From a virus, in the IMG/VR virus record IMGVR_UViG_3300043172_001413: DNA of 17,216 nucleotides; one strand, given 5' to 3'. Both the position numbers and the translations under genes were made by a program. Below are positions 1,926-14,200 of the stretch, in pieces. Within the stretch, counting starts at the first letter, position 1; every line of letters begins with the position of its first letter. The notes under the pieces were generated by a model. The model worked only from the letters and a program-made list of their open reading frames with translations, ran no database searches and was not told where the DNA came from.

Positions 1926-2115
1926 TATTTTTTATTTCCTTTTTTACTAATGTTATGATTCCTCTGGCTGCAGGAATCCAGTTAAGCAAGGATTTTGCTA
2001 TATATTCACTGCGTTTCATACCGGCTACTTTTCTTCTTTTCTCCTGTGTGCCGGCCCAGTACTGTGTAGCGAGTATTCGAGCTATTCTTTTTTCTAATTC
2101 AAATTCTTTAGACAT
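1894..2115 (-). CDS. Small basic helical protein, 73 aa, translationally coupled to the E1 gene
   Basis: ATG at 2115 overlaps the E1 stop (2108) by 8 nt; Lys/Arg-rich. Confidence 0.35.
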   Translation of the reverse strand: MSKEFELEKRIARILATQYWAGTQEKRRKVAGMKRSEYIAKSLLNWIPAARGIITLVKKEIKNNGRRTSIRAL

Positions 2116-2755
2116 GAAATTCGTTAATTTTCAGATCCTTGAGAGTGATAAAGTAATTCTTTTTTGTACCATCGTTAAGATATTTAATTATAGTCTCAGA
2201 AGCAACCGCTACTGATAAAAGAATCACATTTCGGGCCAGCGGGTACTCACAAACATCGAGACCCTTCGGTTCCCCCGGTACCGTGTAAAATTCGTTCCAG
2301 ATAACTTCCGCGTAGTCTTTAAATAGCCCTACGTGCAGACAATCCAATTGATTTTCTTTACAATAATTATATAGTAACCCACGACTCTTTGATTCATCAA
2401 AAGAATCAATAACAATCTCGAAATTGGGCTTCTTTAAAATCTTTCCTATATTGTTTTCGGAGAGTTCTTTTGGTAATGAATTGAGAATAGTACCGGTTGA
2501 ATTATATATTTTTGTTTTCATTCTCTCAGTTTTTAAACCGCCAACATCAAGACGGTCCCATATTTGGGTGCCTTTATTGTGGTCTTCGACGCGGTCTTTA
2601 TCGACAGTAGATAGAGTTTTAAAGCCCTGCCGCGCCATATTATCGATGAGATTTGAACCAATGGCACCACATCCAGCAAACATTATACGTACCGCAGCCA
2701 TTTTCGTTAATAGTTTTTCCGTCCGGTATTCCTGTTCATGAGTGAATAAATCCAT
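2108..2755 (-). CDS. Minimal E1-like ThiF/MoeB-family adenylyltransferase (ubiquitin-activating-like)
   Basis: Rossmann nucleotide motif VRIMFAGCGAIGSNLIDNMARQGF followed by TLSTVDKDRVEDHNKGTQ, matching the ThiF/MoeB GxGxxG...D.D.VE.sN..RQ pattern; candidate catalytic Cys in LDVCEYP; sits 3 nt downstream of the JAB gene. Confidence 0.75.
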   Translation of the reverse strand: MDLFTHEQEYRTEKLLTKMAAVRIMFAGCGAIGSNLIDNMARQGFKTLSTVDKDRVEDHNKGTQIWDRLDVGGLKTERMKTKIYNSTGTILNSLPKELSENNIGKILKKPNFEIVIDSFDESKSRGLLYNYCKENQLDCLHVGLFKDYAEVIWNEFYTVPGEPKGLDVCEYPLARNVILLSVAVASETIIKYLNDGTKKNYFITLKDLKINEFHV

Positions 2756-2758
2756 AGT

Positions 2759-3157
2759 TTATCCGATCTTTATTCTGATGAAATGCCCTATTTTTTTGAA
2801 TGATACTTCATGGCATTCTACTTTTTTTTCTACTCTTCCGTAGATATACATTTTTTGTCTACCATTACCTTCTATACCGCATATGAGCGGTTTGCCCAAA
2901 GCTTTGACCCAACCTATCATTGTTGTGTCATCGATAGCAGACGGTGAAGGAGAGCCTCCTGGATGAGTATGGCTAAATCCTAAAATTTTTTTAGCATTTC
3001 GGACAACTTTTTTCCAGTTAAAATCAACGGAACCAGGATTACCCTCGGATTCATAAATAAAAACACCATATAGATATTCTCCCCATTTATATCCATAGAT
3101 GATCCAGCAATTTTCATTGAAAATTCTGTCTATCAATTTATCCGCCCTGTCTATCAA
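2759..3157 (-). CDS. JAB/MPN (JAMM) metalloprotease, 132 aa
   Basis: Exact JAMM signature E...FSHTHPGGSPSPSAIDD (HxHx7Sx2D) with the upstream Glu in VFIYESEGN; the annotated start is a TTG preceded by AAGGCGG. Confidence 0.8.
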   Translation of the reverse strand: MIDRADKLIDRIFNENCWIIYGYKWGEYLYGVFIYESEGNPGSVDFNWKKVVRNAKKILGFSHTHPGGSPSPSAIDDTTMIGWVKALGKPLICGIEGNGRQKMYIYGRVEKKVECHEVSFKKIGHFIRIKIG

Positions 3158-3167
3158 TTTATCCGCC
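3126..3167. repeat. Perfect 21-nt tandem duplication (ctgtctatcaatttatccgcc x2) covering the SD/start region of the JAB gene
   Basis: Direct repeat read in the sequence; on the minus strand it duplicates GGCGGATAAATTGATAGACAG, i.e. RBS-like GGCGG plus TTG start plus IDR codons. Confidence 0.7.
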
Positions 3168-3283
3168 TTGTTTCAGTAAAATGAGAATAACAGCTATGAA
3201 TAGTAAAATGATAAAGGGTAAAACCCTATTTTTAGAAAGAGTAAAAACAACAAAAAATAAGGTGTCTTTAAAAATATTTTTCT

Positions 3284-4144
3284 TCATAATGCCCTGCTTA
3301 TCTGGCCGGACCGCTGCCCTTCTTGAATAACAGAGATGAGACTCTTTAAATCAAAATCTTTATCACCCTCTCTGCCTGTGCCATGGTCAGTCAGACATAT
3401 CCCAGCAGTTATAACCCAATGTGCCGGATCTTTGGAAATAACTGAGTTGAATGTGTGCCCGTCTACTTCATAGGTAACAAAGAGATGGTCTGAGCGTTCC
3501 TTGCTTTCTATAAATTTTCCACCGGCATATTCTACGTCTCTCTGTATGTTTCCTTTTTTCTTTTCATCAGCAATTTTTTTATCAAGTTTATATTTAATGC
3601 TGTAAGCAATTTTTTCCTCAAGGGTTAAGCCGAAATGTTTTATCCTTCCCGGTGTTCTCAATTTTTTTATGGATTCCCTGAGGTAATCCGTCCGGATCGG
3701 ATCACCTGACATGTCTATGGAATCAAACCACAGGTTTGCACCGTCATATCTGCATATGCATTTAGCGAAGTCCTCTGCTGTATCGTCGAACAGGAATATC
3801 GGCAATAAATCGTTAACTTTGAAGTTCCAGTTATTGCTTTTCATGGGGACTCCGAAATACGCTTTCTTTTTCTTAAACACCAAAATCAGTCGTACTTTAG
3901 GTAAAAAGTTAAGATACCTCTGAATTTTATCTATGTCTGCGGGTGAGGTAACTTTTGCCCTTTTGTTATTGATAGCTTTAAAAGAATACCAACCCGGATC
4001 GGTTTTCGGTATCTCAAGACGGTAGATAATACCTTCGATCCGGGTGATGATCTCTCGATTATAAAAGATGGGAGAGATGATTTCCTTTTCAGTTATCATC
4101 TCCTCCTGCACTCCTATTCTATCAATTGTATCAAGAATGTTCAT
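3284..4144 (-). CDS. 286-aa protein whose C-terminus resembles a UBC/E2 active site (HWVITAGICLTDH versus E2 HPNI...G.ICLD); N-terminal ~200 aa unassigned
   Basis: ATG overlaps the stop of the upstream vWA gene (ATGA); motif similarity only, with a short tail after the Cys, so the E2 assignment is tentative. Confidence 0.5.
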   Translation of the reverse strand: MNILDTIDRIGVQEEMITEKEIISPIFYNREIITRIEGIIYRLEIPKTDPGWYSFKAINNKRAKVTSPADIDKIQRYLNFLPKVRLILVFKKKKAYFGVPMKSNNWNFKVNDLLPIFLFDDTAEDFAKCICRYDGANLWFDSIDMSGDPIRTDYLRESIKKLRTPGRIKHFGLTLEEKIAYSIKYKLDKKIADEKKKGNIQRDVEYAGGKFIESKERSDHLFVTYEVDGHTFNSVISKDPAHWVITAGICLTDHGTGREGDKDFDLKSLISVIQEGQRSGQISRAL

Positions 4145-5715
4145 GCTGCTTTTTTCTTTTTGCCGAAGTCTTTTCTCTTGGGAAGTGGTGTGTCCATGAT
4201 CTCATATAGAAGATCAAGTTTTGACTTCCGTGATAGTAAAGGTATAAGACCAGGTAATGCATAATAATCATCACCTTCAGGCTCGTAATAATCAAATGCA
4301 ATTTTAGCCAGTTTTAAACTCTGGCTGAGTTTTTTATTACCCCAATTAGTCTTCATGTATATAATGGTAATAGTAGGAGTAATGTTGTGCCTCAGTTCAT
4401 ACTTTTTAAAGGTATCAGCGAACCAAGGATCAGTATTCTCATCTTCATCAGTGATAATAACGATTTGTTCAACACAACGCCCTTTTCTCATAAGGAAATC
4501 CAAAGCTGAGCCAATGGATGTTCCGCCGTGAGCGTGCAACGGTTTGAAAGCTCTCTCCCAGGCAGACATACCAGTTTCGCCTTCTTCTGCAACAATCTCA
4601 CGCGCTGCTGTATCGAAAGCCACTACAATTAAATTAGCTTCAGTGGCTCCTGAGACGAGAGAAGAGACGCTTTTACCCACTTCGAGAGCTGTTTGCATAG
4701 ACCCACTTTTGTCGATAAAGATGGCAGTATCAACTTTTATGACACCTCTTTTCTTTATTTGGGTGTCTGCAATTTCCTCCAGAATTTTGACACTATTCTC
4801 ATCCTTGACTCTACCGGTTTTTACTGCTTGTTTTGACTTCAATGCAGAGACACTCTTTGATTTCTTTGCCTTTTCGAGTTTCTCTGTAATGAGTTTTTTG
4901 GTGTCCTCATTTTTCATCGCACCTTTTTCTTCAAGAGAAGCATAGTTGTTTATAACTTCCTGAGGAGACATGGCATTGATCAGAGCAACCAGAATTGATG
5001 GAGTAACTTTCTCAACCAATCCAACAGCGACGGTGTAAGGAATTTTGTTCTCTACAATCAGTCGTGCAACTTTTGCAGGGCTTTTCGTATCTGCTATCTG
5101 CTGAAAAACATTAAGCTTGCTGTCTTCAGGGTATTTGCTCTTGAAGAGAATCTCTTCAGCACGGTTGCTTGGTGCAATATGAAGAGTTGCATAGAGCCCT
5201 TTCAGATCATTTTTGTTTCTGATAACAATTGAATCAAAGATATCAGTTTCGGTTTCAATGTAATTTAAGAAAGCTCTGATATCATTTCTGAAAGATGTCG
5301 GTATATTCTTGAAGAGGCCTACAGTTTTTTCCTCTATAGTTATTTCATCGACTTTTCTCTTGCCTTTGAGAATTTTCTTCCCTGTTTTCCTTCTCAGCTT
5401 TATTTTCTTTCCTTTAACAAAGCCGACAACTTTCCTTTTCAGGAATGTAGGTAGATCTCTGAATAGAGCAAGACCAACTTCACGGTTTTCATGGTACGTA
5501 TCACATACAAGCGCTCCTACGAACACTTCTTTATGATCGCGTATATCTCCATTTTTGAAATACCATGCCGCCAGATGTGAGTAAAAGACTGGGTCGATTT
5601 TTTGCAGTTCCAGGTGCACATCTTTGAGTTTGTCAGTATCCCGGTGAGGGCAGCTTAAAAAGGAATTCAACATTCCGACTCTGACATCCTGTTCGTTTTC
5701 TCTAACTCTGTTCAT
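4141..5715 (-). CDS. 524-aa protein with a C-terminal von Willebrand factor A (vWA, MIDAS) domain, an alpha-helical N-terminal half and a lysine-rich basic linker; architecture resembles Ro60/Rsr (TROVE + vWA)
   Basis: MIDAS motif AIFIDKSGSMQ...(T)...VIITDEDEN; basic stretch KGKKIKLRRKTGKKILKGKRK; AAWYFKNG resembles Ro60 ADWYNEKG but the motifs are not colinear with Ro60, so TROVE is unproven; strong GGAGG SD. Confidence 0.8.
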   Translation of the reverse strand: MNRVRENEQDVRVGMLNSFLSCPHRDTDKLKDVHLELQKIDPVFYSHLAAWYFKNGDIRDHKEVFVGALVCDTYHENREVGLALFRDLPTFLKRKVVGFVKGKKIKLRRKTGKKILKGKRKVDEITIEEKTVGLFKNIPTSFRNDIRAFLNYIETETDIFDSIVIRNKNDLKGLYATLHIAPSNRAEEILFKSKYPEDSKLNVFQQIADTKSPAKVARLIVENKIPYTVAVGLVEKVTPSILVALINAMSPQEVINNYASLEEKGAMKNEDTKKLITEKLEKAKKSKSVSALKSKQAVKTGRVKDENSVKILEEIADTQIKKRGVIKVDTAIFIDKSGSMQTALEVGKSVSSLVSGATEANLIVVAFDTAAREIVAEEGETGMSAWERAFKPLHAHGGTSIGSALDFLMRKGRCVEQIVIITDEDENTDPWFADTFKKYELRHNITPTITIIYMKTNWGNKKLSQSLKLAKIAFDYYEPEGDDYYALPGLIPLLSRKSKLDLLYEIMDTPLPKRKDFGKKKKAA

Positions 5716-6005: not shown

Positions 6006-6043
6006 TATGACTCCTCCTGTTAAAGTAAAAAGTGTCCTCAGTT

Positions 6044-6074
6044 TATTATACCCATTTTCAACTGAGATTGTTCA
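6044..6074 (-). promoter_or_regulatory. Candidate sigma70-type promoter for the minus-strand operon (-35 TTGAAC, 19-nt spacer, -10 TATAAT)
   Basis: Minus-strand TATAAT at 6049..6044 and TTGAAC at 6074..6069; the spacer is 2 nt longer than optimal. Confidence 0.3.
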
Positions 6075-6194
6075 AGAAAATCACACTTTATTAATGATAC
6101 TGGTTTTTAGCTGTTAATTTAAACTAAAAAATGGTAATAATATAATTTTTTTCTGGGTCAAAGTAAAAAAAAATTAAAATAGTGAAAATAAGTG

Positions 6195-6223
6195 TTGACA
6201 GAACTTCTTTTTAGTGGTATATT
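6195..6223 (+). promoter_or_regulatory. Strong sigma70-type promoter: TTGACA, 17 nt, TG-n-TATATT (extended -10)
   Basis: TTGACA 6195..6200, spacer gaacttctttttagtgg, TATATT 6218..6223 with TG at 6215..6216; drives the plus-strand RNA cluster. Confidence 0.6.
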
Positions 6224-6258
6224 ATTCTTCGTAGAGTCTCTGCGCCCAAATTTATCGG

Positions 6259-6266
6259 GCGTACAT
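6259..6266 (+). promoter_or_regulatory. GCNTACAT motif copy A (gcgTACAT), 2 nt before tRNA-Val
   Basis: One of seven copies of (G)GCNTACAT-W, each immediately 5' of an RNA gene. Confidence 0.4.
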
Positions 6267-6268
6267 TT

Positions 6269-6343
6269 GAAGATATAGCTCAGTGGTAGAGCGATCATTT
6301 TACAGATGATAAGTCCCTGGCTCGAAACCAGGTTTCTTCACCA
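6269..6343 (+). tRNA. tRNA-Val (anticodon UAC), encoded CCA
   Basis: Cloverleaf folded by eye: acceptor GAAGATA/TTTCTTC (one T.T mismatch), D-arm GCTC-AGTGGTA-GAGC, anticodon stem ATCAT/ATGAT with loop TTTACAG, 5-nt variable loop, T-arm CCTGG-CTCGAAA-CCAGG (unusual C54), discriminator A, CCA. Confidence 0.75.
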
Positions 6344-6407
6344 AATCAGCACGATTAACTTGCGCAGGACTTTCTTTGAAATTATAGCAGAAAACCTAAC
6401 GGTAGAT

Positions 6408-6415
6408 GCTTACAT
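6408..6415 (+). promoter_or_regulatory. GCNTACAT motif copy B (gctTACAT)
   Basis: Motif copy preceding structured RNA B. Confidence 0.35.
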
Positions 6416-6524
6416 AACGTGAAGTCGAAAGACTTCCAGCCCCTCCACCTGCTCACAATCGGTAAGTGAGTTAGTGGTGGGGCTGGATTATCCCGGTTCG
6501 CCGGGAAGCACCTCAAACTTTTTT
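6416..6524 (+). ncRNA. Structured ncRNA B (~110 nt): GAAA-tetraloop hairpin, 12-bp GC-rich stem enclosing an inner hairpin, UUCG-tetraloop hairpin, then T6; boundaries approximate
   Basis: GAAGTC-GAAA-GACTTC (6421..6436); CCAGCCCCtCCAC/GTGGtGGGGCTGG (6436..6448 with 6474..6486) around CTCAC-AATCGGTAA-GTGAG; TCCCGG-TTCG-CCGGGA (6491..6506); T-run 6519..6524. Confidence 0.45.
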
Positions 6525-6567
6525 CTGCTTATTATAAATCGTAAATGGGCAACATCAGACATTGAGG

Positions 6568-6575
6568 GCTTACAT
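6568..6575 (+). promoter_or_regulatory. GCNTACAT motif copy C (gctTACAT)
   Basis: Motif copy preceding structured RNA C. Confidence 0.35.
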
Positions 6576-6671
6576 TAATTTTTAGGAATTAATCGTCCCC
6601 TGTAGAGTCAGGGGGCAAACCTCGGGGAAACCCGGGGAAAGCACTTAAGACTTGGTTGCTCATTTTTTTTT
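6576..6671 (+). ncRNA. Structured ncRNA C (~95 nt) ending in a T9 run: CCCCTG-TAGAGT-CAGGGG hairpin and a 7-bp GAAA-tetraloop hairpin; probable end of the first transcription unit
   Basis: Hairpins at 6597..6614 and 6620..6637; T9 at 6663..6671 preceded by only a weak AGCA/TGCT stem; boundaries approximate. Confidence 0.4.
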
Positions 6672-6676
6672 GGTCT

Positions 6677-6704
6677 TTGAAATTTTAATGTCACAACCTA
6701 ATTT
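6677..6704 (+). promoter_or_regulatory. Candidate promoter for tRNA-like D: -35 TTGAAA, 16 nt, -10 TAATTT; predicted start at the GCGTACAT motif
   Basis: TTGAAA 6677..6682; TAATTT 6699..6704; the -10 ends exactly 8 nt before TACAT, the same geometry as units E and F. Confidence 0.35.
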
Positions 6705-6709
6705 TTAAT

Positions 6710-6717
6710 GCGTACAT
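6710..6717 (+). promoter_or_regulatory. GCNTACAT motif copy D (gcgTACAT), abutting tRNA-like D
   Basis: The last T of TACAT is position 1 of the tRNA-like gene. Confidence 0.4.
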
Positions 6718-6790
6718 TATCGATAGCTCAGTGTAGAGCGCAAGAACGCTAATCTTGATGTCGTAGGCTCGAAACCTACTCGATGAACCA
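6717..6790 (+). tRNA. tRNA-like gene (74 nt with CCA) with an atypical anticodon loop ACGCUAA (C33; nominal anticodon GCU) and a short variable loop; identity and function uncertain
   Basis: Acceptor TTATCGA/TCGATGA (one G.U), D-arm GCTC-AGTGTA-GAGC, anticodon stem CAAGA/TCTTG, variable loop ATGTC, T-arm GTAGG-CTCGAAA-CCTAC (C54 again), discriminator A + CCA; a GCU anticodon without a long variable arm is not a normal tRNA-Ser. Confidence 0.6.
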
Positions 6791-6877
6791 AACAAAGCAT
6801 TTTCAACTTTTGTGACATTTATTATAAAATTTGTTCTTTGAAAAATGGGATCTGATATTTTTAATTGGCACATTTCC

Positions 6878-6896
6878 TAACTTTGGGAGCCTACAT
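6878..6896 (+). promoter_or_regulatory. -10-like TAACTT (6878..6883) plus GCNTACAT motif copy E (gccTACAT, 6889..6896)
   Basis: Same 8-nt gap between the -10-like hexamer and TACAT as in units D and F; no -35 at optimal spacing (TTGAAA lies 34 nt upstream). Confidence 0.3.
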
Positions 6897-7007
6897 TAGT
6901 TAATTTGGAGGTTCAATTCCTCCTCCCGGCACCACAAGTGCTTGATTTTCAAGTGCTTCTGATGCCGGGATGGCCAAATTGGTAAAGGCGACTGTCTTCA
7001 GAACAGT
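6897..7007 (+). ncRNA. Circularly permuted tRNA-like module: T-arm, acceptor 3' strand, ACCA, 29-nt linker hairpin, acceptor 5' strand, D-arm, complete anticodon arm with UCA
   Basis: GGAGG-TTCAATT-CCTCC (6907..6923), TCCCGGC-A-CCA (6924..6934), linker CAAGTGCTTGATTTTCAAGTGCTTCTGAT (imperfect inverted repeat), GCCGGGA (6964..6970, perfect complement of 6924..6930), TG, GCC-AAATTGGTAAA-GGC, G, ACTGT-CTTCAGA-ACAGT (6991..7007; U33, anticodon UCA, R37). Confidence 0.5.
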
Positions 7008-7067
7008 TTTAAAAAACTTGTTAACCTGCTCTTTTAACTTGAATGTGTCAATTTAAAATATCGGTCT

Positions 7068-7095
7068 TTGAAAAAAAAGGCATTTCACCTAATCT
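7068..7095 (+). promoter_or_regulatory. Candidate promoter for RNA F: -35 TTGAAA, 16 nt, -10 TAATCT
   Basis: TTGAAA 7068..7073; TAATCT 7090..7095; 8 nt upstream of TACAT (7104), matching the unit D geometry. Confidence 0.35.
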
Positions 7096-7100
7096 TTGGA

Positions 7101-7108
7101 GCCTACAT
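7101..7108 (+). promoter_or_regulatory. GCNTACAT motif copy F (gccTACAT)
   Basis: Motif copy preceding structured RNA F. Confidence 0.35.
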
Positions 7109-7227
7109 AAAAAATTCCGGTTCGACTCCGGGTTTCCCCGCCTGACAGACTTTAATAGGTCTACCAGGCGGGGAAACTAGCCGTGTGGATGGCATCAGAT
7201 AGTGAATCTGACAAAATAAATTTTTGT
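7109..7227 (+). ncRNA. Structured ncRNA F: T-arm-like hairpin (TCCGG-TTCGACT-CCGGG) followed by a perfect 13-bp hairpin and a 6-bp hairpin; 3' boundary uncertain
   Basis: 7116..7132 T-arm-like with canonical TTCGANT loop; GTTTCCCCGCCTG (7132..7144) / CAGGCGGGGAAAC (7165..7177) perfect inverted repeat with inner AGAC/GTCT; TCAGAT-AGTGA-ATCTGA 7195..7210. Confidence 0.3.
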
Positions 7228-7258
7228 TACTGCTCTTTTAACTTTGAAATGCTCTTTT

Positions 7259-7266
7259 AAATACAT
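7259..7266 (+). promoter_or_regulatory. Degenerate motif copy G (aaaTACAT)
   Basis: TACAT conserved but the upstream GC is replaced; precedes the last structured segment. Confidence 0.25.
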
Positions 7267-7392
7267 AGGATTGGGTGGTTACTCACCGAGTAATCTTTAT
7301 TTGGTTTGCCCAGCCCTCTCCTCAGAGTTACCTAGTTGGGCAATTAGCCGTAAGCCGGGAAGATTTTTCTTTAACTTCCCGGCTTATTTTTT
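7267..7392 (+). ncRNA. Structured RNA segment G (hairpins GGTTACTC-ACC-GAGTAATC and TTGCCCA...TGGGCAA) ending in the cluster terminator
   Basis: Inverted repeats read in the sequence; may be a 3' UTR-like tail of the F transcript rather than a separate RNA. Confidence 0.3.
7352..7392 (+). terminator. Rho-independent terminator: perfect 11-bp stem AAGCCGGGAAG/CTTCCCGGCTT, 12-nt loop, then ATTTTTT
   Basis: Inverted repeat 7352..7362 / 7375..7385 followed by T6 at 7387..7392; closes the RNA cluster 13 nt before the next CDS. Confidence 0.7.
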
Positions 7393-7404
7393 GTACCATT
7401 AAAT

Positions 7405-10050
7405 ATGAAATGTCCTATCTGTGGTAATTCCTATTTCTCTGATTTCTTGAAATGCCCCGCCTATAAAATCTGTCTCATCTGTAATTTATGCTGCCAAGAA
7501 ACTTTACCGGAAAAAGTATATGAAGGACTGGAAGAAAATGATGGGAAAGGTCCCGGTACAGGCCATGAAATGTCAAATGAAGAAAAATCTATTAATACAA
7601 ATCTCGCTAATTCCCTCTATCATATGTATCTTCCCCGGACTGTCCTGGATATCGGATCCAAATATCCTATTTTTCTCCATACTTTAAAAGACCGTGCAGA
7701 AGTACTGGGAATTGACGGTATCCCTGAAATTATTAAATATGGTGAGGAACTCGGTGTCCCGGTTATTAACACTGACTTTGAATCCATAGACATTACACCA
7801 TATAAGAATAAATTTGACCTGATAACCGTCATACATACCTTTGAGCATTTTTATAATCCATTTGAGACTCTAAAAAAGATTTTGGAGTGTCTGAGTTCTC
7901 GGGGAGTTCTCTATATGCGTATCCCGAATATGGACGTATCAGGCATTGACCGGGATTTTACTAAGCATCATTTAACGATCCACCCCTTTATTTATTCCAC
8001 GCAAGCTATGTATATGTTGAGTGAAAAACTGGGTTATGAGATATTCAGGATTGATGACCAGGGAGGGTACGGGCAGAGTGATTTTTTCTTCAGGAAAAGA
8101 AAGGATAAATTCACCCTTTCAGTATGTATGATTGTGAAAAATGAAGAAAAGAATATAACTGATTGTCTTGAGAGTATTAAAGACGTGGCAGATGAATTTG
8201 TGATCGTTGATACTGGATCTACGGATAGAACGAAAGAGGTGGTCTCAAAATACACCTCTAACATCTATGATTTCAAATGGATAGATGATTTTTCTGCTGC
8301 CCGGAATTTTTCTTTGAGTAAGGCTACCGGTGATTTTGTGCTCTGGCTCGATGCAGATGATATTGTAGAGAATCCAGAAGCTATTTTACCCTTGCTGAAG
8401 GAAAGTTTTGATGCCCATGATTTCAATATTATATATGGGAATGATAATTTCAGCCAGGCACGGTTGTTCCGAAATTTCAGAAATATCCGTTTTGCCGGCC
8501 GCGTGCATGAATACCCTGTGTTGGATGGTCTGTTTTTAGAGATTCAAACGGATTTACCCACACCACAACGGGTTATTTCTCATCAGCGGGAGACAAGAGT
8601 AAATGTGTATCATAAGACAGAGAAACACAGTACTGAGGACAGGTCAGAGAGAAACTACCGCATTTTAAAAAAAGAATTGGAAGAGGATCCAGATAATTCA
8701 CGGACTCTCTTTTATCTGGGTAACGTTTTGAAAGAATTAAAAAGTTATGATGAAGCTATTGAAACATACCGGAAATATCTGAAGGTTTCAACTTGGGTTG
8801 ATGAGAAATGGATGGCTCAAAAATATATAGGCTGTATACTTCTATGGCAGGGATATTATAAAGAAGCGATAGAGGAATTTAAAGGGGCTATTGAGATAGA
8901 TAATAGATGGGCAGAATCCTATTATTATATAGGGGAATGTCTTTTTTTATTAAAAGATTACGATGGATGTATTGATTGGATGTTGAAAGCTGTGGAGAAA
9001 AAGCCCCCTTTCTCACCCCTGTGGAAAGAAACATCTGTTTATCAGGATGCACCCTATCGTTATATTTTTGCTGTCTATGATGTAAAAGGAGATTACAAGA
9101 AAGCTATTCATTATTGTAAGAGAGCCTGCGAGAAAAAACCCGGGAATGAATGGCTTGAAGGCAGGTTATTACACTTTGAAAGTCTTCTTGGGGGCGATTT
9201 ACGCGTAATAGAGTGTTTCAGGCAGGGAGCACTGGGAGACTGTTTAATGACAACTGCAGCTCTGCGAGGTCTGAAAGAGAAAGATCCTGGATGTTTTATT
9301 CGATATGTAACGCATCCTCATAGTATGCAAATTCTTGAAGGTAATAAATATATCGATGAATTGGTTTCAGAATCAAAAGAAGAACATGCGCAGAAGATTT
9401 ACTTTTCCTATCCGGACAAGGACTCTCCGTTGGAGGATGAAGGGTATCCTGATAAACCTTTGAGCAGGCATTTGATAAAAATTTTCAATGAATGTGCTGG
9501 GTTACCTGATAATAGTATGGAAATGGAGTGTACTCTTTCTGAGAAAGAGGAAAATGTGGGTCGATCATTACGCCGTCAGTATAAGAAATATTTAACATTG
9601 CATGTTAAATCTGGATGGTCCGCTTATAAAGATTGGTATAATGACCGGTGGAGACTTGTTGTTGAAAAATTATTTCAAAGAGGTTATGTGACCGTACAAA
9701 TAGGTCACAAGGAGGATTTTTTATTAAGAAATACTGTTGATTTCCGGGGTCATACGATAAAAGAAGTTTTGTCTGCTATTAAATATGCTGATGTTCACAT
9801 GGGTATTGATAGTTTCACTAATCATGTTTCTGCGACGTTTTTTGCCCCTTCAGTGATTTTATTTGGTAGTACTTCACCTATAGGGTCAGGTTATGACCAG
9901 AACATAAATATTTACAAGGACTTGCCGTGTCAGCCCTGTTATCGGGAATATAAAAGTAAAGATCCGTGTCCATGTGGGAAGAAATGTATGAGTTTGATCA
10001 CGGTTGATGAGGTTCTGAAGAGCGTTATTAAACTTCTGGAAGAAAGATGA
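7405..10050 (+). CDS. 881-aa multidomain enzyme: N-terminal Cys-rich zinc ribbon, class I SAM methyltransferase, GT2 glycosyltransferase, TPR repeats, C-terminal GT9 (heptosyltransferase-like) glycosyltransferase
   Basis: CPICG...CPAYKICLICNLCC; VLDIGSK...FDLITVIHTFEHFYNP (methyltransferase motifs); LSVCMIVKNEE...VIVDTGSTD...WLDADD (GT2 DxD); TPR-like helices in the YLGNVLKELKSYDEAIETYRKYL region; GALGDCLMTT...HMGIDSFTNHVSATFFAPSVILFGSTSP (GT9 signature). Confidence 0.85.
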   Translation: MKCPICGNSYFSDFLKCPAYKICLICNLCCQETLPEKVYEGLEENDGKGPGTGHEMSNEEKSINTNLANSLYHMYLPRTVLDIGSKYPIFLHTLKDRAEVLGIDGIPEIIKYGEELGVPVINTDFESIDITPYKNKFDLITVIHTFEHFYNPFETLKKILECLSSRGVLYMRIPNMDVSGIDRDFTKHHLTIHPFIYSTQAMYMLSEKLGYEIFRIDDQGGYGQSDFFFRKRKDKFTLSVCMIVKNEEKNITDCLESIKDVADEFVIVDTGSTDRTKEVVSKYTSNIYDFKWIDDFSAARNFSLSKATGDFVLWLDADDIVENPEAILPLLKESFDAHDFNIIYGNDNFSQARLFRNFRNIRFAGRVHEYPVLDGLFLEIQTDLPTPQRVISHQRETRVNVYHKTEKHSTEDRSERNYRILKKELEEDPDNSRTLFYLGNVLKELKSYDEAIETYRKYLKVSTWVDEKWMAQKYIGCILLWQGYYKEAIEEFKGAIEIDNRWAESYYYIGECLFLLKDYDGCIDWMLKAVEKKPPFSPLWKETSVYQDAPYRYIFAVYDVKGDYKKAIHYCKRACEKKPGNEWLEGRLLHFESLLGGDLRVIECFRQGALGDCLMTTAALRGLKEKDPGCFIRYVTHPHSMQILEGNKYIDELVSESKEEHAQKIYFSYPDKDSPLEDEGYPDKPLSRHLIKIFNECAGLPDNSMEMECTLSEKEENVGRSLRRQYKKYLTLHVKSGWSAYKDWYNDRWRLVVEKLFQRGYVTVQIGHKEDFLLRNTVDFRGHTIKEVLSAIKYADVHMGIDSFTNHVSATFFAPSVILFGSTSPIGSGYDQNINIYKDLPCQPCYREYKSKDPCPCGKKCMSLITVDEVLKSVIKLLEER

Positions 10051-11207: not shown

Positions 11208-14200
11208 ATGTCAAAGACCAAAAGAAAATGGATCTGTGGTGTTGGTGATTTACCTGATACCACTCAGAATTACAACGCTTTTCAAGCCTTACGTGCAGAA
11301 GACATTCCATACGATCCGACTCTAAGTATTAAAGATGCTATAGAATCTGGGCTGACCGGTGTTCAGGGGCCCACTGGAGCCACGGGTACTGGTATCCAGG
11401 GCGAGACAGGAGTCGCGGGTATTTATGGAGAAACGGGTGTACAGGGTCAAACTGGAATAGGAATTCAGGGAGAAACAGGTGTTGAAGGAATACAAGGTCA
11501 AACCGGAGCTTCGGGTGGTGGAGAAACAGGAATTCAGGGAGAAACAGGTGTTGAAGGAATACAAGGTCAAACCGGAGCTTCGGGTGGTGGAGAAACAGGG
11601 ATTCAGGGAGAAACAGGTGTTCAAGGAATTGCCGGACAAACCGGAGCTCTGGGGGGTGGAGACACAGGAGTCCAGGGCGAAACGGGTATCCAGGGAATTG
11701 CCGGACAAACTGGTGCGGGTATCCAGGGTCAGACGGGTGCTGGTATCCAGGGTCAAACAGGTATTCAAGGAGAGACTGGTGCTGGTACTCAGGGCGAAAC
11801 GGGTATCCAGGGAACGCAGGGTTCACAGGGCGAAACGGGTATTCAGGGCTATACAGGAGTCCAGGGAGAGACAGGAGTTCAGGGAACACAGGGAGAGACA
11901 GGAGTTCAGGGAACACAGGGCGAGACAGGAGTTCAGGGTGAGACCGGTACTGGTATCCAGGGAGAAACGGGTGTCGCTGGAGTAGCAGGAGAGACAGGAG
12001 TTCAGGGAGATCAGGGCGAGACAGGAGTAGCAGGAGTCGCAGGAGAGACGGGTGTCCAGGGAACACAGGGAGAGACAGGAGTACAGGGTCAGACGGGTGC
12101 TGGTATCCAGGGCGAGACAGGAGTTCAGGGAACACAGGGCGAGACAGGAGTTCAGGGTGAGACCGGTACTGGTATCCAGGGCGAAACGGGTGTCCAGGGA
12201 ACACAGGGCGAGACAGGAGTTCAGGGTGAGACCGGTACTGGTATTCAGGGCGAGACAGGAGTTCAGGGAGATCAGGGAGAGACAGGAGTACAGGGTGAGA
12301 TAGGTGAAACGGGTGTCCAAGGTGATATTGGTCCTCAAGGTCCAAGAGGAGACCAGGGGGAGACCGGAGTCCAGGGAATTCAAGGTATCCAAGGAACTAC
12401 AGGGGTCCAAGGTATCCAGGGTGTCACCGGGGTTCAGGGAGAAACAGGAATCCAGGGAACCCAGGGTAATCAAGGTGAAACAGGAGTTGAAGGTATACAG
12501 GGAGACACAGGTATAGCAGGTGTAGCTGGTGTCACGGGGACCCAAGGCTCACAGGGAGTAACAGGAGTTGAGGGTACACAGGGAGACACAGGTGCAGGTC
12601 TTCAAGGTGTTACGGGTATCCAAGGGATCCAAGGCCAGACAGGTGTACAGGGAGAGACCGGTATAGAGGGTGAAACTGGAATAGAGGGCTCTCAGTTTGT
12701 CGGTTTTATGTATAATGCTTTAACAAATAGTCAATCGGATACAGATCCAGGGACAGGGAAATTAAAATGGAGTACTGTTGGTCAGACAAATGCTGCTGAA
12801 TTATATGTAGATGATGAGGATAAAAACTCTATAGATTATAGTTCACTTTATATCACTTTAAAAAATAGTGATGTTATTCGTGTCCAGCGTCAGGAAAATC
12901 CCAAACAATTTCAAATTTTTAAAATAGATGCTGTTGTTGATAGAACAGGATGGTTTCGTTTTGAAGTTTCTTTTATTGTAAGTGGAGGTTCTGTTTTTAG
13001 TCTTAATGATAATCTTATTTTGATTTTTGAGATTTCTGGACCGCAGGGAGAGACAGGAGTAGCAGGAGAGACAGGAGTTCAGGGAGACACAGGTGTAGCA
13101 GGTGTAGCGGGGGAGACCGGAGTCCAGGGAGTTCAGGGTATCCAGGGTAATCAGGGCGAGACAGGAGTTCAGGGAGACACAGGAGCGGGAGTAGCCGGAG
13201 AGACAGGAGTTCAGGGAGACACAGGTATAGGTGTAGCGGGGGAGACCGGAGTCCAGGGAGTTCAGGGAGAGACAGGAGTAGCAGGAGAGACAGGAGTTCA
13301 GGGGACTCAGGGAGAGACAGGAGTACAGGGTCAGACGGGTGCTGGTATCCAGGGGGAGACCGGAGTTCAGGGAACACAAGGAGAGACTGGTTCTCAGGGT
13401 CAGACGGGTGCTGGTATCCAGGGCGAGACAGGAGTTCAGGGGACTCAGGGAGAGACTGGTTCTCAGGGTCAGACTGGTGCTGGTATCCAGGGCGAGACAG
13501 GAGTTCAGGGTACACAGGGAGAGACAGGTTCTCAGGGTCAGACTGGTGCTGGTATCCAGGGAGAGACAGGAGTTCAGGGTACACAGGGAGAGACAGGTTC
13601 TCAGGGTCAGACGGGTGCTGGTATCCAGGGAGAGACAGGAATTCAGGGTCAGACGGGTATTCAAGGAGTCACGGGAGAAACTGGAGTCGGTATCCAGGGA
13701 GAGACAGGAGTTCAGGGAACACAGGGAGAGACAGGAGTCCAGGGTCAGACTGGTGCTGGTATCCAGGGAGAAACAGGAATTCAGGGAACACAGGGAGTAA
13801 CAGGAGCTGGGATTCAAGGAGAGACAGGAGTTCAGGGAGCACAGGGCGATACAGGAGTTCAGGGAGCACAGGGCGAGACAGGAGTTCAGGGTCAGACGGG
13901 CGAGACAGGAGTTCAGGGCGAGACAGGAGTCGCGGGTGTAGCAGGAGAGACAGGAGTTGCGGGTATTCAGGGAGAGACCGGAAGTCAGGGTCAGACGGGT
14001 GTTCAGGGAGACACAGGTATAGCAGGTATAGCGGGGGAGACCGGAGTCCAGGGTAATCAGGGTATCCAGGGTAATCAGGGAGAGACAGGAGTTCAGGGTA
14101 CACAGGGAGAGACAGGTTCTCAGGGTCAGACGGGTGCTGGTATCCAGGGAGAGACAGGAATTCAGGGTCAGACGGGTATTCAAGGAGTCACGGGTATCCA

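What the first reader, a model, noticed from the sequence alone, without database searches (positions are those of the whole stretch)
6897..7007. Circularly permuted tRNA-like element carrying an opal-reading UCA anticodon arm
In gene order the element is: T-arm (GGAGG-TTCAATT-CCTCC), acceptor 3' strand TCCCGGC, ACCA, a 29-nt linker hairpin, acceptor 5' strand GCCGGGA (perfect 7-bp complement), TG, D-arm, then a textbook anticodon stem-loop ACTGT-CUUCAGA-ACAGT with U33 and purine 37. Every tRNA element is present and in the right relative order, but the gene starts at the T-arm. No conventional 5' half lies upstream of the T-arm and no T-arm lies downstream of the anticodon arm. Two readings are possible. 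(a) It is a genuine permuted tRNA gene needing circularisation or processing, as known in the red alga Cyanidioschyzon, and it would yield an opal-suppressor tRNA. (b) It is the tRNA-like domain of a Y-RNA-like molecule. Either would be unusual in a phage or bacterial context.
Basis: seen in the sequence. Interest (0 to 1): 0.8.

Follow-up and report, generated by a model that had tools for sequence, protein, structure and literature searches.

The report
Y RNA shaped like permuted tRNA
The "permuted tRNA" is real as a structure, but it is the tRNA-mimicking domain of a Y RNA (YrlA type) encoded next to a diverged Ro60 protein gene, not an opal-suppressor tRNA; it is an unusual variant of a known RNA class.

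Summary
At 6907-7007 the gene order is T-arm, acceptor 3' strand, ACCA, a 29-nt linker hairpin, acceptor 5' strand, UG, D-arm, then an anticodon-like hairpin. Un-permuted in silico, ARAGORN calls it a tRNA(UCA). Thirteen related units show strong covariation in every helix.

It is not a suppressor tRNA. The divergently transcribed gene 1.2 kb upstream (4141-5715, minus strand) is a diverged Ro60/Rsr: its AlphaFold model matches only full-length Ro60 structures. The same permuted core and leader/trailer scaffold sit beside homologues of this protein in dozens of loci, including cyanobacterial chromosomes. There, Rfam's YrlA model hits the core at sub-threshold scores.

The UCA loop is not conserved. 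The closest orthologues have CGUUAAA and CGGUAAA, and only 6 of 11 loops have U33. Relatives seal the acceptor stem with tetraloops. TGA ends 7 of the 15 long ORFs checked in the window.

New features compared with described YrlA:
- The 5'/3' stem enters at the variable-arm position, leaving a closed anticodon-like arm.
- Six scaffolded units (two ordinary-looking tRNAs among them) plus a terminal element form one array on the opposite strand to Ro60.
- NCCA is encoded in this subclade.

The parts
6907..6923 (+). T-arm mimic (GGAGG-UUCAAUU-CCUCC)
   Evidence: In the 13 related units the T-stem is 98% paired with 3 of 5 pairs compensatory, and the GGUUCRANUCC sequence is nearly invariant.
6924..6970 (+). 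Closed acceptor stem. 3' strand UCCCGGC 6924-6930, A73-like 6931, CCA 6932-6934, 29-nt linker hairpin 6935-6963, 5' strand GCCGGGA 6964-6970.
   Evidence: The acceptor is 99% paired with 5 of 7 pairs compensatory. NCC follows the 3' strand in 10 of 13 units and NCCA in 4 of 13.
6971..6989 (+). U8/G9-like dinucleotide and D-arm mimic (GCC-AAAUUGGUAAA-GGC)
   Evidence: The D-stem is 78% paired with 2 of 3 pairs compensatory, and the GG in the loop is conserved.
6991..7007 (+). Anticodon-arm mimic ACUGU-CUUCAGA-ACAGU. The hairpin is conserved; the loop triplet is not.
   Evidence: The hairpin is 97% paired with 5 of 5 pairs compensatory. Loops in relatives: CGUUAAA, CGGUAAA, CUAAACA, AAUAUGGA and others. 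Y32 11/11, U33 6/11, R37 10/11, A38 11/11.
6852..6906 (+). 5' half of the scaffold. Outer-helix strand 6852-6875, internal-loop motif CCUAAC 6876-6881, helix A GGGAGC 6885-6890, invariant CUACAU 6891-6896, helix B strand about 6898-6904.
   Evidence: MFE of the array, repeat families D1/D2 and inverted repeat I1, unit segmentation. Outer helix 94% paired with 7 of 8 pairs compensatory. Helix B supported in aggregate.
7008..7064 (+). 3' half of the scaffold. Helix B strand about 7015-7025, helix A GCUCUU 7028-7033, conserved UUAACUUG 7034-7041, outer-helix strand 7041-7064.
   Evidence: AACUUG immediately before the outer stem is also in Rfam's YrlA consensus.
4141..5715 (-). Gene for a diverged Ro60/Rsr (TROVE ring plus vWA) protein, the presumed partner of the RNA
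   Evidence: Pfam sees only a weak vWA match. AF2 model has pLDDT 80 and pTM 0.76. The top 13 Foldseek PDB hits are all full-length Ro60/Rsr/phage Ro60, E 1e-11 to 2e-8, TM 0.5-0.6.
7075..7258 (+). Second unit of the same kind (P2). T-arm 7116-7132, closed 13-bp acceptor stem 7133-7176, D-arm, hairpin UCAGA-UAGUGAA-UCUGA 7195-7211, own scaffold.
   Evidence: Fold z = -7.2. Un-permuted, ARAGORN calls tRNA-His(gtg). The L004 orthologue has loop UUUAGGU instead. Included in the covariation test.
6195..7392 (+). The whole small-RNA array. Promoter-like TTGACA-17-TATATT 6195-6223. Units: tRNA-Val 6259-6361, X1 6408-6520, X2 6568-6653, tRNA-like 6710-6809, P1 6889-7040, P2 7101-7244, then a terminal element and terminator hairpin 7351-7386 with a T-run.
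   Evidence: The array is syntenic in L004, L005, L008, L009 and L012.

Best explanation
The element is the tRNA-like domain of a YrlA-type bacterial/phage Y RNA. It is one of six scaffolded units (plus a terminal element) in a small-RNA array transcribed divergently from a diverged Ro60/Rsr gene.

Shown:
- The RNA folds as a five-way junction with a T-arm, an acceptor stem closed by a linker hairpin, a D-arm and an anticodon-arm-like hairpin.
- The fifth helix is formed by the unit's own leader and trailer (helix B, helix A, a conserved internal loop CCUAAC / UUAACUUG, and an outer helix of about 20 bp).
- That leader/trailer stem leaves the junction where a class-II tRNA has its long variable arm.
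- The partner gene is Ro60-like.
- The core and the scaffold co-occur with that protein family across distant genomes.

Inferred by analogy with studied Y RNAs:
- The leader/trailer scaffold, with the AACUUG motif it shares with YrlA, is the Ro60-binding module.
- The L-shaped tRNA mimic is the effector or protective module. It would tether Ro60 to another factor (as Y RNA tethers Rsr to PNPase), gate the Ro60 ring, or engage tRNA-binding enzymes.

The loop CUUCAGA is one state of a variable loop, not a decoding anticodon. Because this subclade keeps exactly 7 acceptor pairs plus an encoded NCCA, RNase P opening as in Mycobacterium smegmatis YrlA is possible but unproven.
For: 1. The neighbour is Ro60. 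The AF2 model matches full-length Xenopus and human Ro60, Deinococcus Rsr and Thermus phage phiLo Ro60 as its top 13 hits. A profile search gave colinear weak TROVE hits.
2. Co-occurrence. A descriptor for T-arm, closed 7-bp stem, 2 nt, D-arm found 48 hits in 684 kb of loci chosen only by the protein, against 0-7 in shuffles. A relaxed scan found 67 cores with the leader motif, including cultured cyanobacteria.
3. Same family as YrlA. Rfam RF02553 hits the cores of relatives at 31-43 bits, E down to 2.5e-6, with two full-length alignments. The window's trailer motif AACUUG before the outer stem is in the YrlA consensus. The gene order T-arm, closed acceptor, D-arm is that of the YrlA crystal structure.
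4. Structure. 92.6% of cells pair, 24 of 34 pairs are compensatory and 0 of 500 shuffles reach the score. Helix B summed energy is -15.9 against -4.4 kcal/mol, 0 of 300 shuffles.
5. Not a decoder. Loop sequences differ between orthologues, U33 is present in 6 of 11, two loops have 8 nt, and relatives have tetraloop-sealed acceptor stems. TGA ends 7 of 15 long ORFs, including the Ro60 gene, whose length matches its homologues.
Against: - The window's element gets no YrlA hit from Rfam even at E<=10, and relatives score below the gathering threshold of 69.
- The GNCGAAN0-1G motif that Chen et al. use for the Rsr site is not conserved here.
- The array is on the opposite strand to Ro60, whereas described YrlAs are usually on the same strand.
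- A closed anticodon-like arm with Y32/R37/A38, an exact 7-bp acceptor and an encoded ACCA are more tRNA-like than a mere mimic needs.
- No binding, expression or processing data exist for this locus.
- Ordinary-looking tRNAs sit in the same scaffold, so the scaffold could be a processing cassette rather than, or as well as, a Ro60 site.
Confidence: 0.85

Rival explanations
1. Genuine circularly permuted tRNA gene (Cyanidioschyzon/Thermofilum type). The transcript is circularised, then opened at the acceptor end to give a one-piece tRNA(UCA) that suppresses or reassigns UGA.
For: All tRNA parts are present, and ARAGORN accepts the un-permuted sequence as tRNA(tca). The acceptor has 7 bp plus ACCA. 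Leader and trailer pair, which would bring the ends together.
Against: - The loop is not conserved. Orthologues at 77-80% protein identity have CGUUAAA and CGGUAAA (G33), and L012 has an 8-nt loop.
- The identical CUUCAGA loop in L036 sits on an acceptor stem sealed by GCAA.
- The leader/trailer junction has large internal loops, not a bulge-helix-bulge (sequence).
- Genes have Shine-Dalgarno sites and relatives are bacterial, and bacteria have no known splicing endonuclease.
- TGA terminates 7 of 15 long ORFs.
- No phage or bacterial permuted tRNA gene is reported in the searched literature.
Confidence: 0.03
2. Processed two-piece tRNA mimic. RNase P cuts 5' of G6964 and the linker is trimmed back to the encoded CCA. 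The two chains stay together through the acceptor stem and the leader/trailer helices, giving a Ro60-bound RNA with a free, possibly chargeable, CCA end. This is a sub-case of the Y RNA explanation.
For: - M. smegmatis YrlA, the one YrlA with a 7-bp acceptor, is cut by RNase P in vivo and in vitro, gains CCA, and both halves stay Rsr-bound.
- Here the acceptor is exactly 7 bp.
- NCCA is kept in the window, L004 and two L009 units while the linker sequence changes.
Against: - In these units position 73 and the CCA pair with the UGAU that precedes G1 (A73:U-1, with G73:C-1 in L009b). Leader/RCCA pairing is reported to inhibit RNase P (abstract of PMC9433436), and the pairing alone could explain CCA conservation.
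- Sister units and relatives have GCCU, ACCC, ACUC or plain tetraloops.
Confidence: 0.2
3. The leader/trailer scaffold is only a processing cassette (for example an RNase III stem) of a polycistronic tRNA operon. On this view the link to Ro60 is incidental and P1/P2 are decaying tRNA paralogues.
For: Every unit, including tRNA-Val, is bracketed by a helix of about 20 bp. One strong promoter and one terminator flank the array.
Against: - The scaffold motifs and the permuted core are conserved beside the Ro60-like gene from this clade to cyanobacteria at 42% protein identity.
- The 3' motif matches the YrlA consensus.
- P-type units show compensatory changes in all helices, which decaying genes would not.
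Confidence: 0.07
4. Junction of a permuted two-piece tmRNA gene.
For: Rfam beta_tmRNA hit at 6907-6971, 27.5 bits, E 2e-6, and tmRNA_permuted at 13.6 bits.
Against: - The scores are far below gathering (84 and 47) and cover only the T-arm/acceptor junction.
- ARAGORN finds no tmRNA.
- Pair 3:70 is C-G, not the G-U alanine identity pair.
- A D-arm and an anticodon-like hairpin follow instead of a P2 helix, pseudoknot and tag reading frame, and the next unit starts about 70 nt later.
Confidence: 0.01
5. Artefact: the 3' half of one tRNA next to the 5' half of another (dimeric tRNA or integration scar).
For: Chen et al. warn that tRNA dimers can mimic YrlA in searches.
Against: There is no D or anticodon arm upstream of the T-arm and no T-arm downstream. 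The two acceptor strands are complementary and covary across 13 units.
Confidence: 0.01

Closest known systems
YrlA (Y RNA-like A; Rfam RF02553), the tRNA-mimicking Y RNA bound by bacterial and phage Ro60/Rsr (Chen et al. 2014, PMC4201824; structure PDB 6cu1, bioRxiv 10.1101/312249)
   Same: - Encoded next to a Ro60 orthologue.
- Gene order T-arm, closed acceptor stem-loop, 2 nt, D-arm.
- Conserved T- and D-loop nucleotides for the tRNA elbow.
- 5' and 3' ends pair into a long stem.
- AACUUG precedes the 3' strand of the outer stem.
- Several Y RNAs per locus.
   Different: - The 5'/3' stem enters at the variable-arm position, and a closed 5-bp/7-nt anticodon-like arm follows the D-arm. In YrlA the 5'/3' stem is the anticodon stem and an optional V hairpin lies upstream of the T-arm.
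- No conserved GNCGAAN0-1G motif.
- Long linker hairpin with an encoded NCCA.
- Opposite strand to Ro60.
- Six scaffolded units in one array.
- Not detected by the Rfam model.
Mycobacterium smegmatis YrlA
   Same: [quoted passage not shown]
   Different: There the CA is added after cleavage, whereas here ACCA is encoded. Here the CCA is partly paired with the linker. Processing has not been tested here.
Deinococcus radiodurans Yrn1-type Y RNAs
   Same: The conventional-order tRNA-like units of the array (6259-6361 and 6710-6809) have D- and T-arms in normal order, with the scaffold continuing the acceptor stem. This recalls the opposite arm orientation described for Yrn1.
   Different: The window's units are complete tRNAs by ARAGORN/Rfam, with an encoded CCA. 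Yrn1 is only loosely tRNA-like.
Circularly permuted tRNA genes of Cyanidioschyzon merolae, some green algae and Thermofilum pendens
   Same: The 3' half precedes the 5' half, the acceptor ends are joined by a short intervening sequence, and leader and trailer pair.
   Different: Those have a bulge-helix-bulge motif cut by the splicing endonuclease, a circular intermediate and conserved functional anticodons. None of this is seen here, and relatives are bacterial.
Two-piece tmRNA from permuted ssrA genes
   Same: Same local gene order (T-arm, acceptor 3' strand, CCA, intervening loop, acceptor 5' strand). It is a precedent for a functional two-chain tRNA-like molecule.
   Different: No tag reading frame, pseudoknots or G3:U70. 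The size and context are wrong.

Membership tests
YrlA-type Y RNA | Encoded within a few kb of a Ro60/Rsr (TROVE plus vWA) gene | tested here: met
   The array starts about 480 nt from the start of gene 4141-5715. That protein's AF2 model matches full-length Ro60/Rsr structures as its top 13 hits. The strand is opposite, unlike most described cases.
YrlA-type Y RNA | tRNA-like domain in the order T-arm, closed acceptor-like stem-loop, 2 nt, D-arm, with conserved T/D loop nucleotides | tested here: met
   Covariation in 13 units. Order compared with YrlA nt 33-49, 50-64 and 67-81.
YrlA-type Y RNA | 5' and 3' ends pair into a stem that carries the Rsr-binding module | tested here: met
   Outer helix 94% paired with 7 of 8 pairs compensatory, and helix A 82% paired. 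AACUUG is shared with the Rfam consensus. That this stem binds Ro60 is an inference.
YrlA-type Y RNA | GNCGAAN0-1G motif near the 5' end | tested here: not met
   The only occurrence in the array is GTCGAAAG at 6424 in unit X1. It is absent from P1/P2 and from the L008 and L012 arrays. The corresponding strand covaries instead of being conserved.
YrlA-type Y RNA | Scores at or above the Rfam RF02553 gathering threshold (69 bits) | tested here: not met
   No YrlA hit in the window at E<=10. Distant relatives with the same scaffold score 31-43 bits, E 2.5e-6 to 6e-3.
YrlA-type Y RNA | Main 5'/3' stem occupies the anticodon-stem position, with no anticodon loop | tested here: not met
   Here a closed 5-bp/7-nt hairpin lies 1 nt after the D-arm, and the 5'/3' stem enters between it and the T-arm. 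The 42-44% clade has the canonical layout with an upstream V hairpin.
YrlA-type Y RNA | Bound by Ro60/Rsr in vivo and modified by TruB/DusA | not testable with these tools
   Needs RIP, EMSA and modification mapping.
Circularly permuted tRNA gene (algal/archaeal type) | Bulge-helix-bulge motif at the leader/trailer junction and a splicing endonuclease in the organism | tested here: not met
   The leader/trailer helices are separated by internal loops of roughly 2-10 nt per strand, not by 3-nt bulges around a 4-bp helix. The context is bacterial-type.
Circularly permuted tRNA gene (algal/archaeal type) | Conserved, canonical anticodon loop (U33, R37, fixed anticodon among orthologues) | tested here: not met
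   U33 in 6 of 11. Orthologue loops CGUUAAA, CGGUAAA and AAUAUGGA.
Opal suppressor / UGA-decoding tRNA | The genome shows in-frame UGA or avoids UGA as a stop | tested here: not met
   7 of 15 long ORFs end in TGA, and ORFs are unbroken under code 11. Only 17 kb was examined.
Opal suppressor / UGA-decoding tRNA | Free aminoacylatable 3' CCA end on a single mature chain | not testable with these tools
   ACCA is encoded but buried in a closed stem. Relatives have tetraloops there.
Permuted two-piece tmRNA | G3:U70 pair, tag reading frame and pseudoknots; detected by ARAGORN or Rfam at threshold | tested here: not met
   C3-G70, no ARAGORN tmRNA, 27.5 bits against 84.

The most novel reading that the evidence does not exclude
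In this subclade the Y RNA is more than a mimic. RNase P opens the 7-bp acceptor stem and the linker is trimmed to the encoded CCA. The result is a two-chain, full-cloverleaf tRNA, held together by its open variable arm and carried on Ro60, that can be aminoacylated. In the extreme version it enters the ribosome and reads UGA.
Probability: 0.06. Interest if true: 0.85.

Novelty: new variant of a known kind. Interest (0 to 1): 0.45.

Why it matters
This removes a tempting false lead. No permuted suppressor tRNA or stop-codon recoding is indicated here.

It also extends the Y RNA family in several ways:
- The Ro60 is so diverged that Pfam's TROVE model misses it.
- The Y RNAs are missed by Rfam.
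- The tRNA mimic is complete with an anticodon-like arm.
- The RNA is opened at the variable arm rather than at the anticodon stem.
- Ordinary-looking tRNAs and tRNA mimics share one Ro60-type scaffold in a single array.

Both permutations of the same five-helix junction exist in one protein-linked family. That makes the family a natural test set for which parts of the tRNA shape Ro60 RNPs actually need, and for whether some Y RNAs are matured like tRNAs. The conserved scaffold also gives a simple handle for finding such RNAs in metagenomes.

Tried and rejected
- blastn of the array against the phage collection found no match.
- An exact 28-mer search and a protein-guided search of viral contigs found nothing.
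- Exact-protein look-ups found only contigs with arrays 100% identical to the window, so they gave no covariation.
- I first read the leader motif as a promoter (Bacteroidetes-type -33/-7, a sigma-70 -10, or a phage RNAP promoter). I dropped this because the motif lies downstream of the only strong promoter in unit 1, its spacing to TTGAAA varies (13-32 nt), and it pairs and covaries with the trailer.
- Self-cleaving ribozymes flanking the units: no Rfam ribozyme hit at E<=10.
- An archaeal host with a BHB route, suggested by 'Nanoarchaeia' MAG labels: rejected. Shine-Dalgarno sites are visible, relatives are bacterial and there is no BHB.
- P2 as tRNA-His: GUG and a possible G-1:C73 looked right, but the loop has A33 and the L004 orthologue has UUUAGGU.
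- The GNCGAAN0-1G motif in X1 (6424) is not conserved in orthologues.
- PHROGs gave no phage hallmark, so the phage origin remains unproven.
- The 2020 Ro60/Y RNA review (PMC10870794) is not held.
Full report
**1. The observation**

- T-arm GGAGG-TTCAATT-CCTCC, 6907-6923.
- Acceptor 3' strand TCCCGGC, 6924-6930, then ACCA, 6931-6934.
- A 29-nt linker, 6935-6963, that folds as a hairpin.
- Acceptor 5' strand GCCGGGA, 6964-6970.
- TG, then a D-arm with GG in its loop, 6973-6989.
- One nucleotide, then ACTGT-CTTCAGA-ACAGT, 6991-7007.

RNAfold recovers the T-arm and the closed acceptor stem, with z = -4.56. The anticodon-like hairpin is not in that MFE fold and rests on covariation instead. ARAGORN and Rfam at gathering threshold see nothing here, and call only two ordinary tRNAs at 6269-6343 and 6717-6787. 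When the 5' half is placed before the 3' half with 2-8 nt between them, ARAGORN calls a tRNA with anticodon tca. Rfam's best sub-threshold hit is the junction of the permuted two-piece tmRNA model (27.5 bits), which has the same local topology.

**2. The surroundings**

The element lies in a 1.4-kb noncoding block (6006-7404) between two divergent genes. A second element of identical design lies at 7116-7211 (fold z = -7.2). Un-permuted, ARAGORN calls it tRNA-His(gtg).

The block is an array of units:
- tRNA-Val, 6259-6361
- X1, 6408-6520
- X2, 6568-6653
- a tRNA-like unit, 6710-6809
- P1, which is the finding, 6889-7040
- P2, 7101-7244
- a terminal element ending in a terminator hairpin at 7351-7386

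Every unit has the same flanks. The leader is (outer-helix strand)-CCUAAY-N-(helix A strand)-NUACAU. The trailer is (helix A strand)-N3-RACUYR-(outer-helix strand). In the MFE of the whole array each unit is enclosed by its own leader/trailer stem. For P1 these are 6852-6875 with 7041-7064, and GGGAGC 6885-6890 with GCUCUU 7028-7033. The best promoter-like site is TTGACA-17-TATATT at 6195-6223.

**3. The neighbouring gene**

ORF 4141-5715 (minus strand, 524 aa) gave only a weak vWA hit in Pfam. It has more than 1000 homologues of the same length, some on contigs of 240-512 kb. A profile of 13 of them gave weak but colinear hits to 'TROVE domain-containing protein' chains.

An AlphaFold2 model (pLDDT 80, pTM 0.76) was searched against the PDB. 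The top 13 hits are all full-length Ro60 proteins: Xenopus and human Ro60, Deinococcus Rsr and Thermus phage phiLo Ro60. Alignments cover 517-573 columns, TM is 0.5-0.6 and E runs from 1e-11 to 2e-8. Only vWA domains follow. The gene is a diverged Ro60/Rsr orthologue.

Ro60 proteins bind Y RNAs. Bacterial and phage YrlA Y RNAs carry a tRNA-like domain and were described as resembling circularly permuted tRNAs with closed acceptor stems. TROVE proteins have also been noted in some jumbo phages.

**4. Relatives**

Contigs carrying the identical protein have identical arrays, so I fetched 80 metagenomic loci and 80 genomic loci through the protein alone.

A descriptor for T-arm, 7-nt strand, linker, complementary 7-nt strand, 2 nt and D-arm gave 48 hits in 684 kb, against 0-7 in shuffles. 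A relaxed version found 67 cores that also carry the leader motif G[CG]NUACA, including cores in complete cyanobacterial chromosomes.

The distant relatives (42-44% protein identity) have the same scaffold: 5' CCGCGC-CCUAACUUGUGA-AGCUU-ACA ... AGCUU-UGCUAACUUG-CGCGG 3'. Rfam's YrlA model hits their cores at 31-43 bits with E down to 2.5e-6, twice over the full model. The YrlA consensus has AaAcUuG immediately before the 3' strand of its outer stem, which is the same motif as the window's trailer (7036-7041). The window's element is therefore linked to YrlA by partner protein, by core architecture and by scaffold, although Rfam itself does not detect it.

**5. Structure test**

Thirteen P-type units from the window, L004, L005, L008, L009 and L012 were aligned (A2). 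A named structure of 34 pairs in six helices was counted.
- 92.6% of cells pair, against 36-48% with slid partners.
- 24 pairs have changes on both sides.
- The covariation score is 0.564, against 0.07-0.18 for slid partners and 0.227 for shuffles (0 of 500 reach it).

Each helix is supported:

| Helix | Cells paired | Compensatory pairs |
|---|---|---|
| Outer | 94% | 7 of 8 |
| Helix A | 82% | 2 of 6 |
| T-stem | 98% | 3 of 5 |
| Acceptor | 99% | 5 of 7 |
| D-stem | 78% | 2 of 3 |
| Anticodon-like | 97% | 5 of 5 |

A further weak A/U-rich helix B forms between the leader just before the T-arm and the trailer just after the hairpin. It is supported in aggregate (summed energy -15.9 against -4.4 kcal/mol, 0 of 300 shuffles).

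The RNA is thus a five-way junction in which the leader/trailer stem takes the place of a class-II tRNA's long variable arm. Chen et al. describe canonical YrlA as having the 5'/3' stem in the anticodon-stem position and an optional 'V' hairpin upstream of the T-arm. That is what the 42-44% clade shows. The hairpin after the D-arm is confined to the window's wider clade at 50-80% identity, with 13 cases. So the same junction exists in two circular permutations within one family.

**6. Is the loop an anticodon?**

The hairpin is conserved but its loop is not.

| Unit | Loop |
|---|---|
| Window P1 | CUUCAGA |
| L004 | CGUUAAA |
| L009 | CGGUAAA and CUAAACA |
| L012 | AAUAUGGA (8 nt) |
| L005 | CAGUAAA |
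| L008 | UGGUAAA, UAGCAAA, CAUUUAA |
| Window P2 | UAGUGAA |
| L004 P2 orthologue | UUUAGGU |

Among 11 strict 5-bp/7-nt cases the loop is Y32 in 11 of 11, R37 in 10 of 11 and A38 in 11 of 11, but U33 in only 6 of 11. The loop is tRNA-derived in shape but not constrained as a decoder.

The identical CUUCAGA occurs in L036, where the acceptor stem is sealed by a GCAA tetraloop. Other relatives use UUCG, GAAA or CUCG. These have no free end to charge.

In the window, TGA terminates 7 of the 15 long ORFs I took as likely genes. These include the Ro60 gene, whose length matches its homologues, and no ORF is fragmented under code 11. There is no sign of opal recoding.

**7. What remains open**

This subclade keeps exactly seven acceptor pairs and NCC after the 3' strand in 10 of 13 units. 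NCCA is present in the window, L004 and two L009 units, while the linker sequences differ. M. smegmatis YrlA, the described case with a 7-bp acceptor, is cut by RNase P and gains CCA, and its halves stay on Rsr. A similar opening is possible here.

Against it, A73 and the CA pair with a conserved UGAU before G1, with a compensatory G73:C-1 in L009b. Such leader/RCCA pairing is reported to inhibit RNase P (abstract of PMC9433436), and it could by itself explain the conservation. I put RNase P opening at about 0.2, aminoacylation at well under 0.1, and ribosomal decoding of UGA at a few percent at most.

**8. Mechanism**

Shown: the fold, its conservation, the Ro60-like partner gene, and the co-occurrence of the two.

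Inferred from studied Y RNAs:
- The leader/trailer scaffold binds the Ro60 ring.
- The tRNA-shaped domain either tethers another protein (as Y RNA tethers Rsr to PNPase), gates access to the ring, protects the RNA from nucleases, or engages tRNA-binding enzymes.

The scaffold may also serve as a processing stem for the polycistronic transcript, since ordinary tRNAs sit in it too. The two roles are not exclusive.

**9. Genome type**

Genes have Shine-Dalgarno sites. Most ORFs are small orphans. There is a 1230-aa collagen-repeat protein that matches phage tail-fibre families through its repeats, plus a large glycosyltransferase, and no hallmark phage gene in the window. The protein occurs on a 512-kb contig. 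A huge phage is plausible but not shown.

**10. Verdict**

Reading (b) is supported and reading (a) is not. The element belongs to a known kind, the YrlA-type Y RNAs beside Ro60. It is a variant that differs in permutation point, scaffold motif, strand and array organisation, and it is invisible to current Pfam and Rfam models.

Noticed in passing
window 6259-6361 and 6710-6809; L004, L005, L008, L009, L012, L006, L010: The two conventional-order tRNAs of the array sit in the same Y-RNA-type leader/trailer scaffold as the permuted units. At syntenic positions in related arrays the anticodon differs. First unit: Val-UAC, Glu-UUC, Gly-UCC, Asp-AUC, Arg-CCU, Arg-ACG. Fourth unit: Arg-UCU, Ile-UAU, Lys-UUU. 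The window's second one (loop ACGCUAA) lacks U33 and ARAGORN does not call it. Their T-loops are odd (CUCGAAA). They may be Y-RNA modules rather than working tRNAs, or tRNAs matured out of a Ro60 scaffold.
   Followed up: partly
window 6408-6520 (X1) and 6568-6653 (X2): Two non-tRNA-like structured units sit in the same scaffold and are conserved in L004, L005, L009 and L012. X1 has a hairpin, then a 12-13-bp stem closing another hairpin, then a UUCG-capped hairpin. They are possibly YrlB-like additional Y RNAs. The GTCGAAAG at 6424 fits GNCGAAN0-1G but is not conserved.
   Followed up: partly
window 7262-7392: A terminal element has a 9-bp stem (UUGCCCAGC/GUUGGGCAA) and a stretch resembling P2's acceptor/D region (repeat D7). 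It is followed by a strong terminator hairpin at 7351-7386 and a T-run. It may be a truncated or degenerate further unit.
   Followed up: no
window 2108-4144 (minus strand); L001, L002: The Ro60-like gene is followed in the same operon by a 286-aa protein with no family, a 42-aa ORF, a Prok-JAB protein (2759-3157) and a ThiF/E1-like protein (2108-2755). This looks like a ubiquitin-like conjugation or deconjugation module linked to Ro60, and the order is conserved in the other contigs. Described rsr loci are instead linked to rtcBA RNA repair genes.
   Followed up: no
scaffold internal loop, e.g. window 6876-6884 / 7034-7041; L068, L070, L078: Both strands of the scaffold's internal loop carry nearly the same sequence (CUAACUUG facing CUAACUUG in the cyanobacterial relatives). 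This would form a symmetric loop of alternating Watson-Crick and non-canonical pairs, and is a candidate protein-recognition motif.
   Followed up: no
one search hits P0070, P0086: Homologues on contigs up to 424 kb are labelled 'Candidatus Nanoarchaeia archaeon' MAG in NCBI. Given the Shine-Dalgarno sites and bacterial relatives, these bins may contain misassigned huge-phage or bacterial contigs.
   Followed up: no
window 7405-10050 and 11208-14900: An 881-aa fusion protein combines methyltransferase, GT2, TPR and GT9 domains. A separate 1230-aa protein has 13 matched stretches of collagen triple-helix repeat. Both are large surface- or glycan-related genes flanking the RNA array.
   Followed up: no
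L078 36-3182: A distant relative locus carries about 20 conventional tRNA genes in tandem upstream of its YrlA and Ro60-like gene. That tRNA island is typical of large phages.
   Followed up: no
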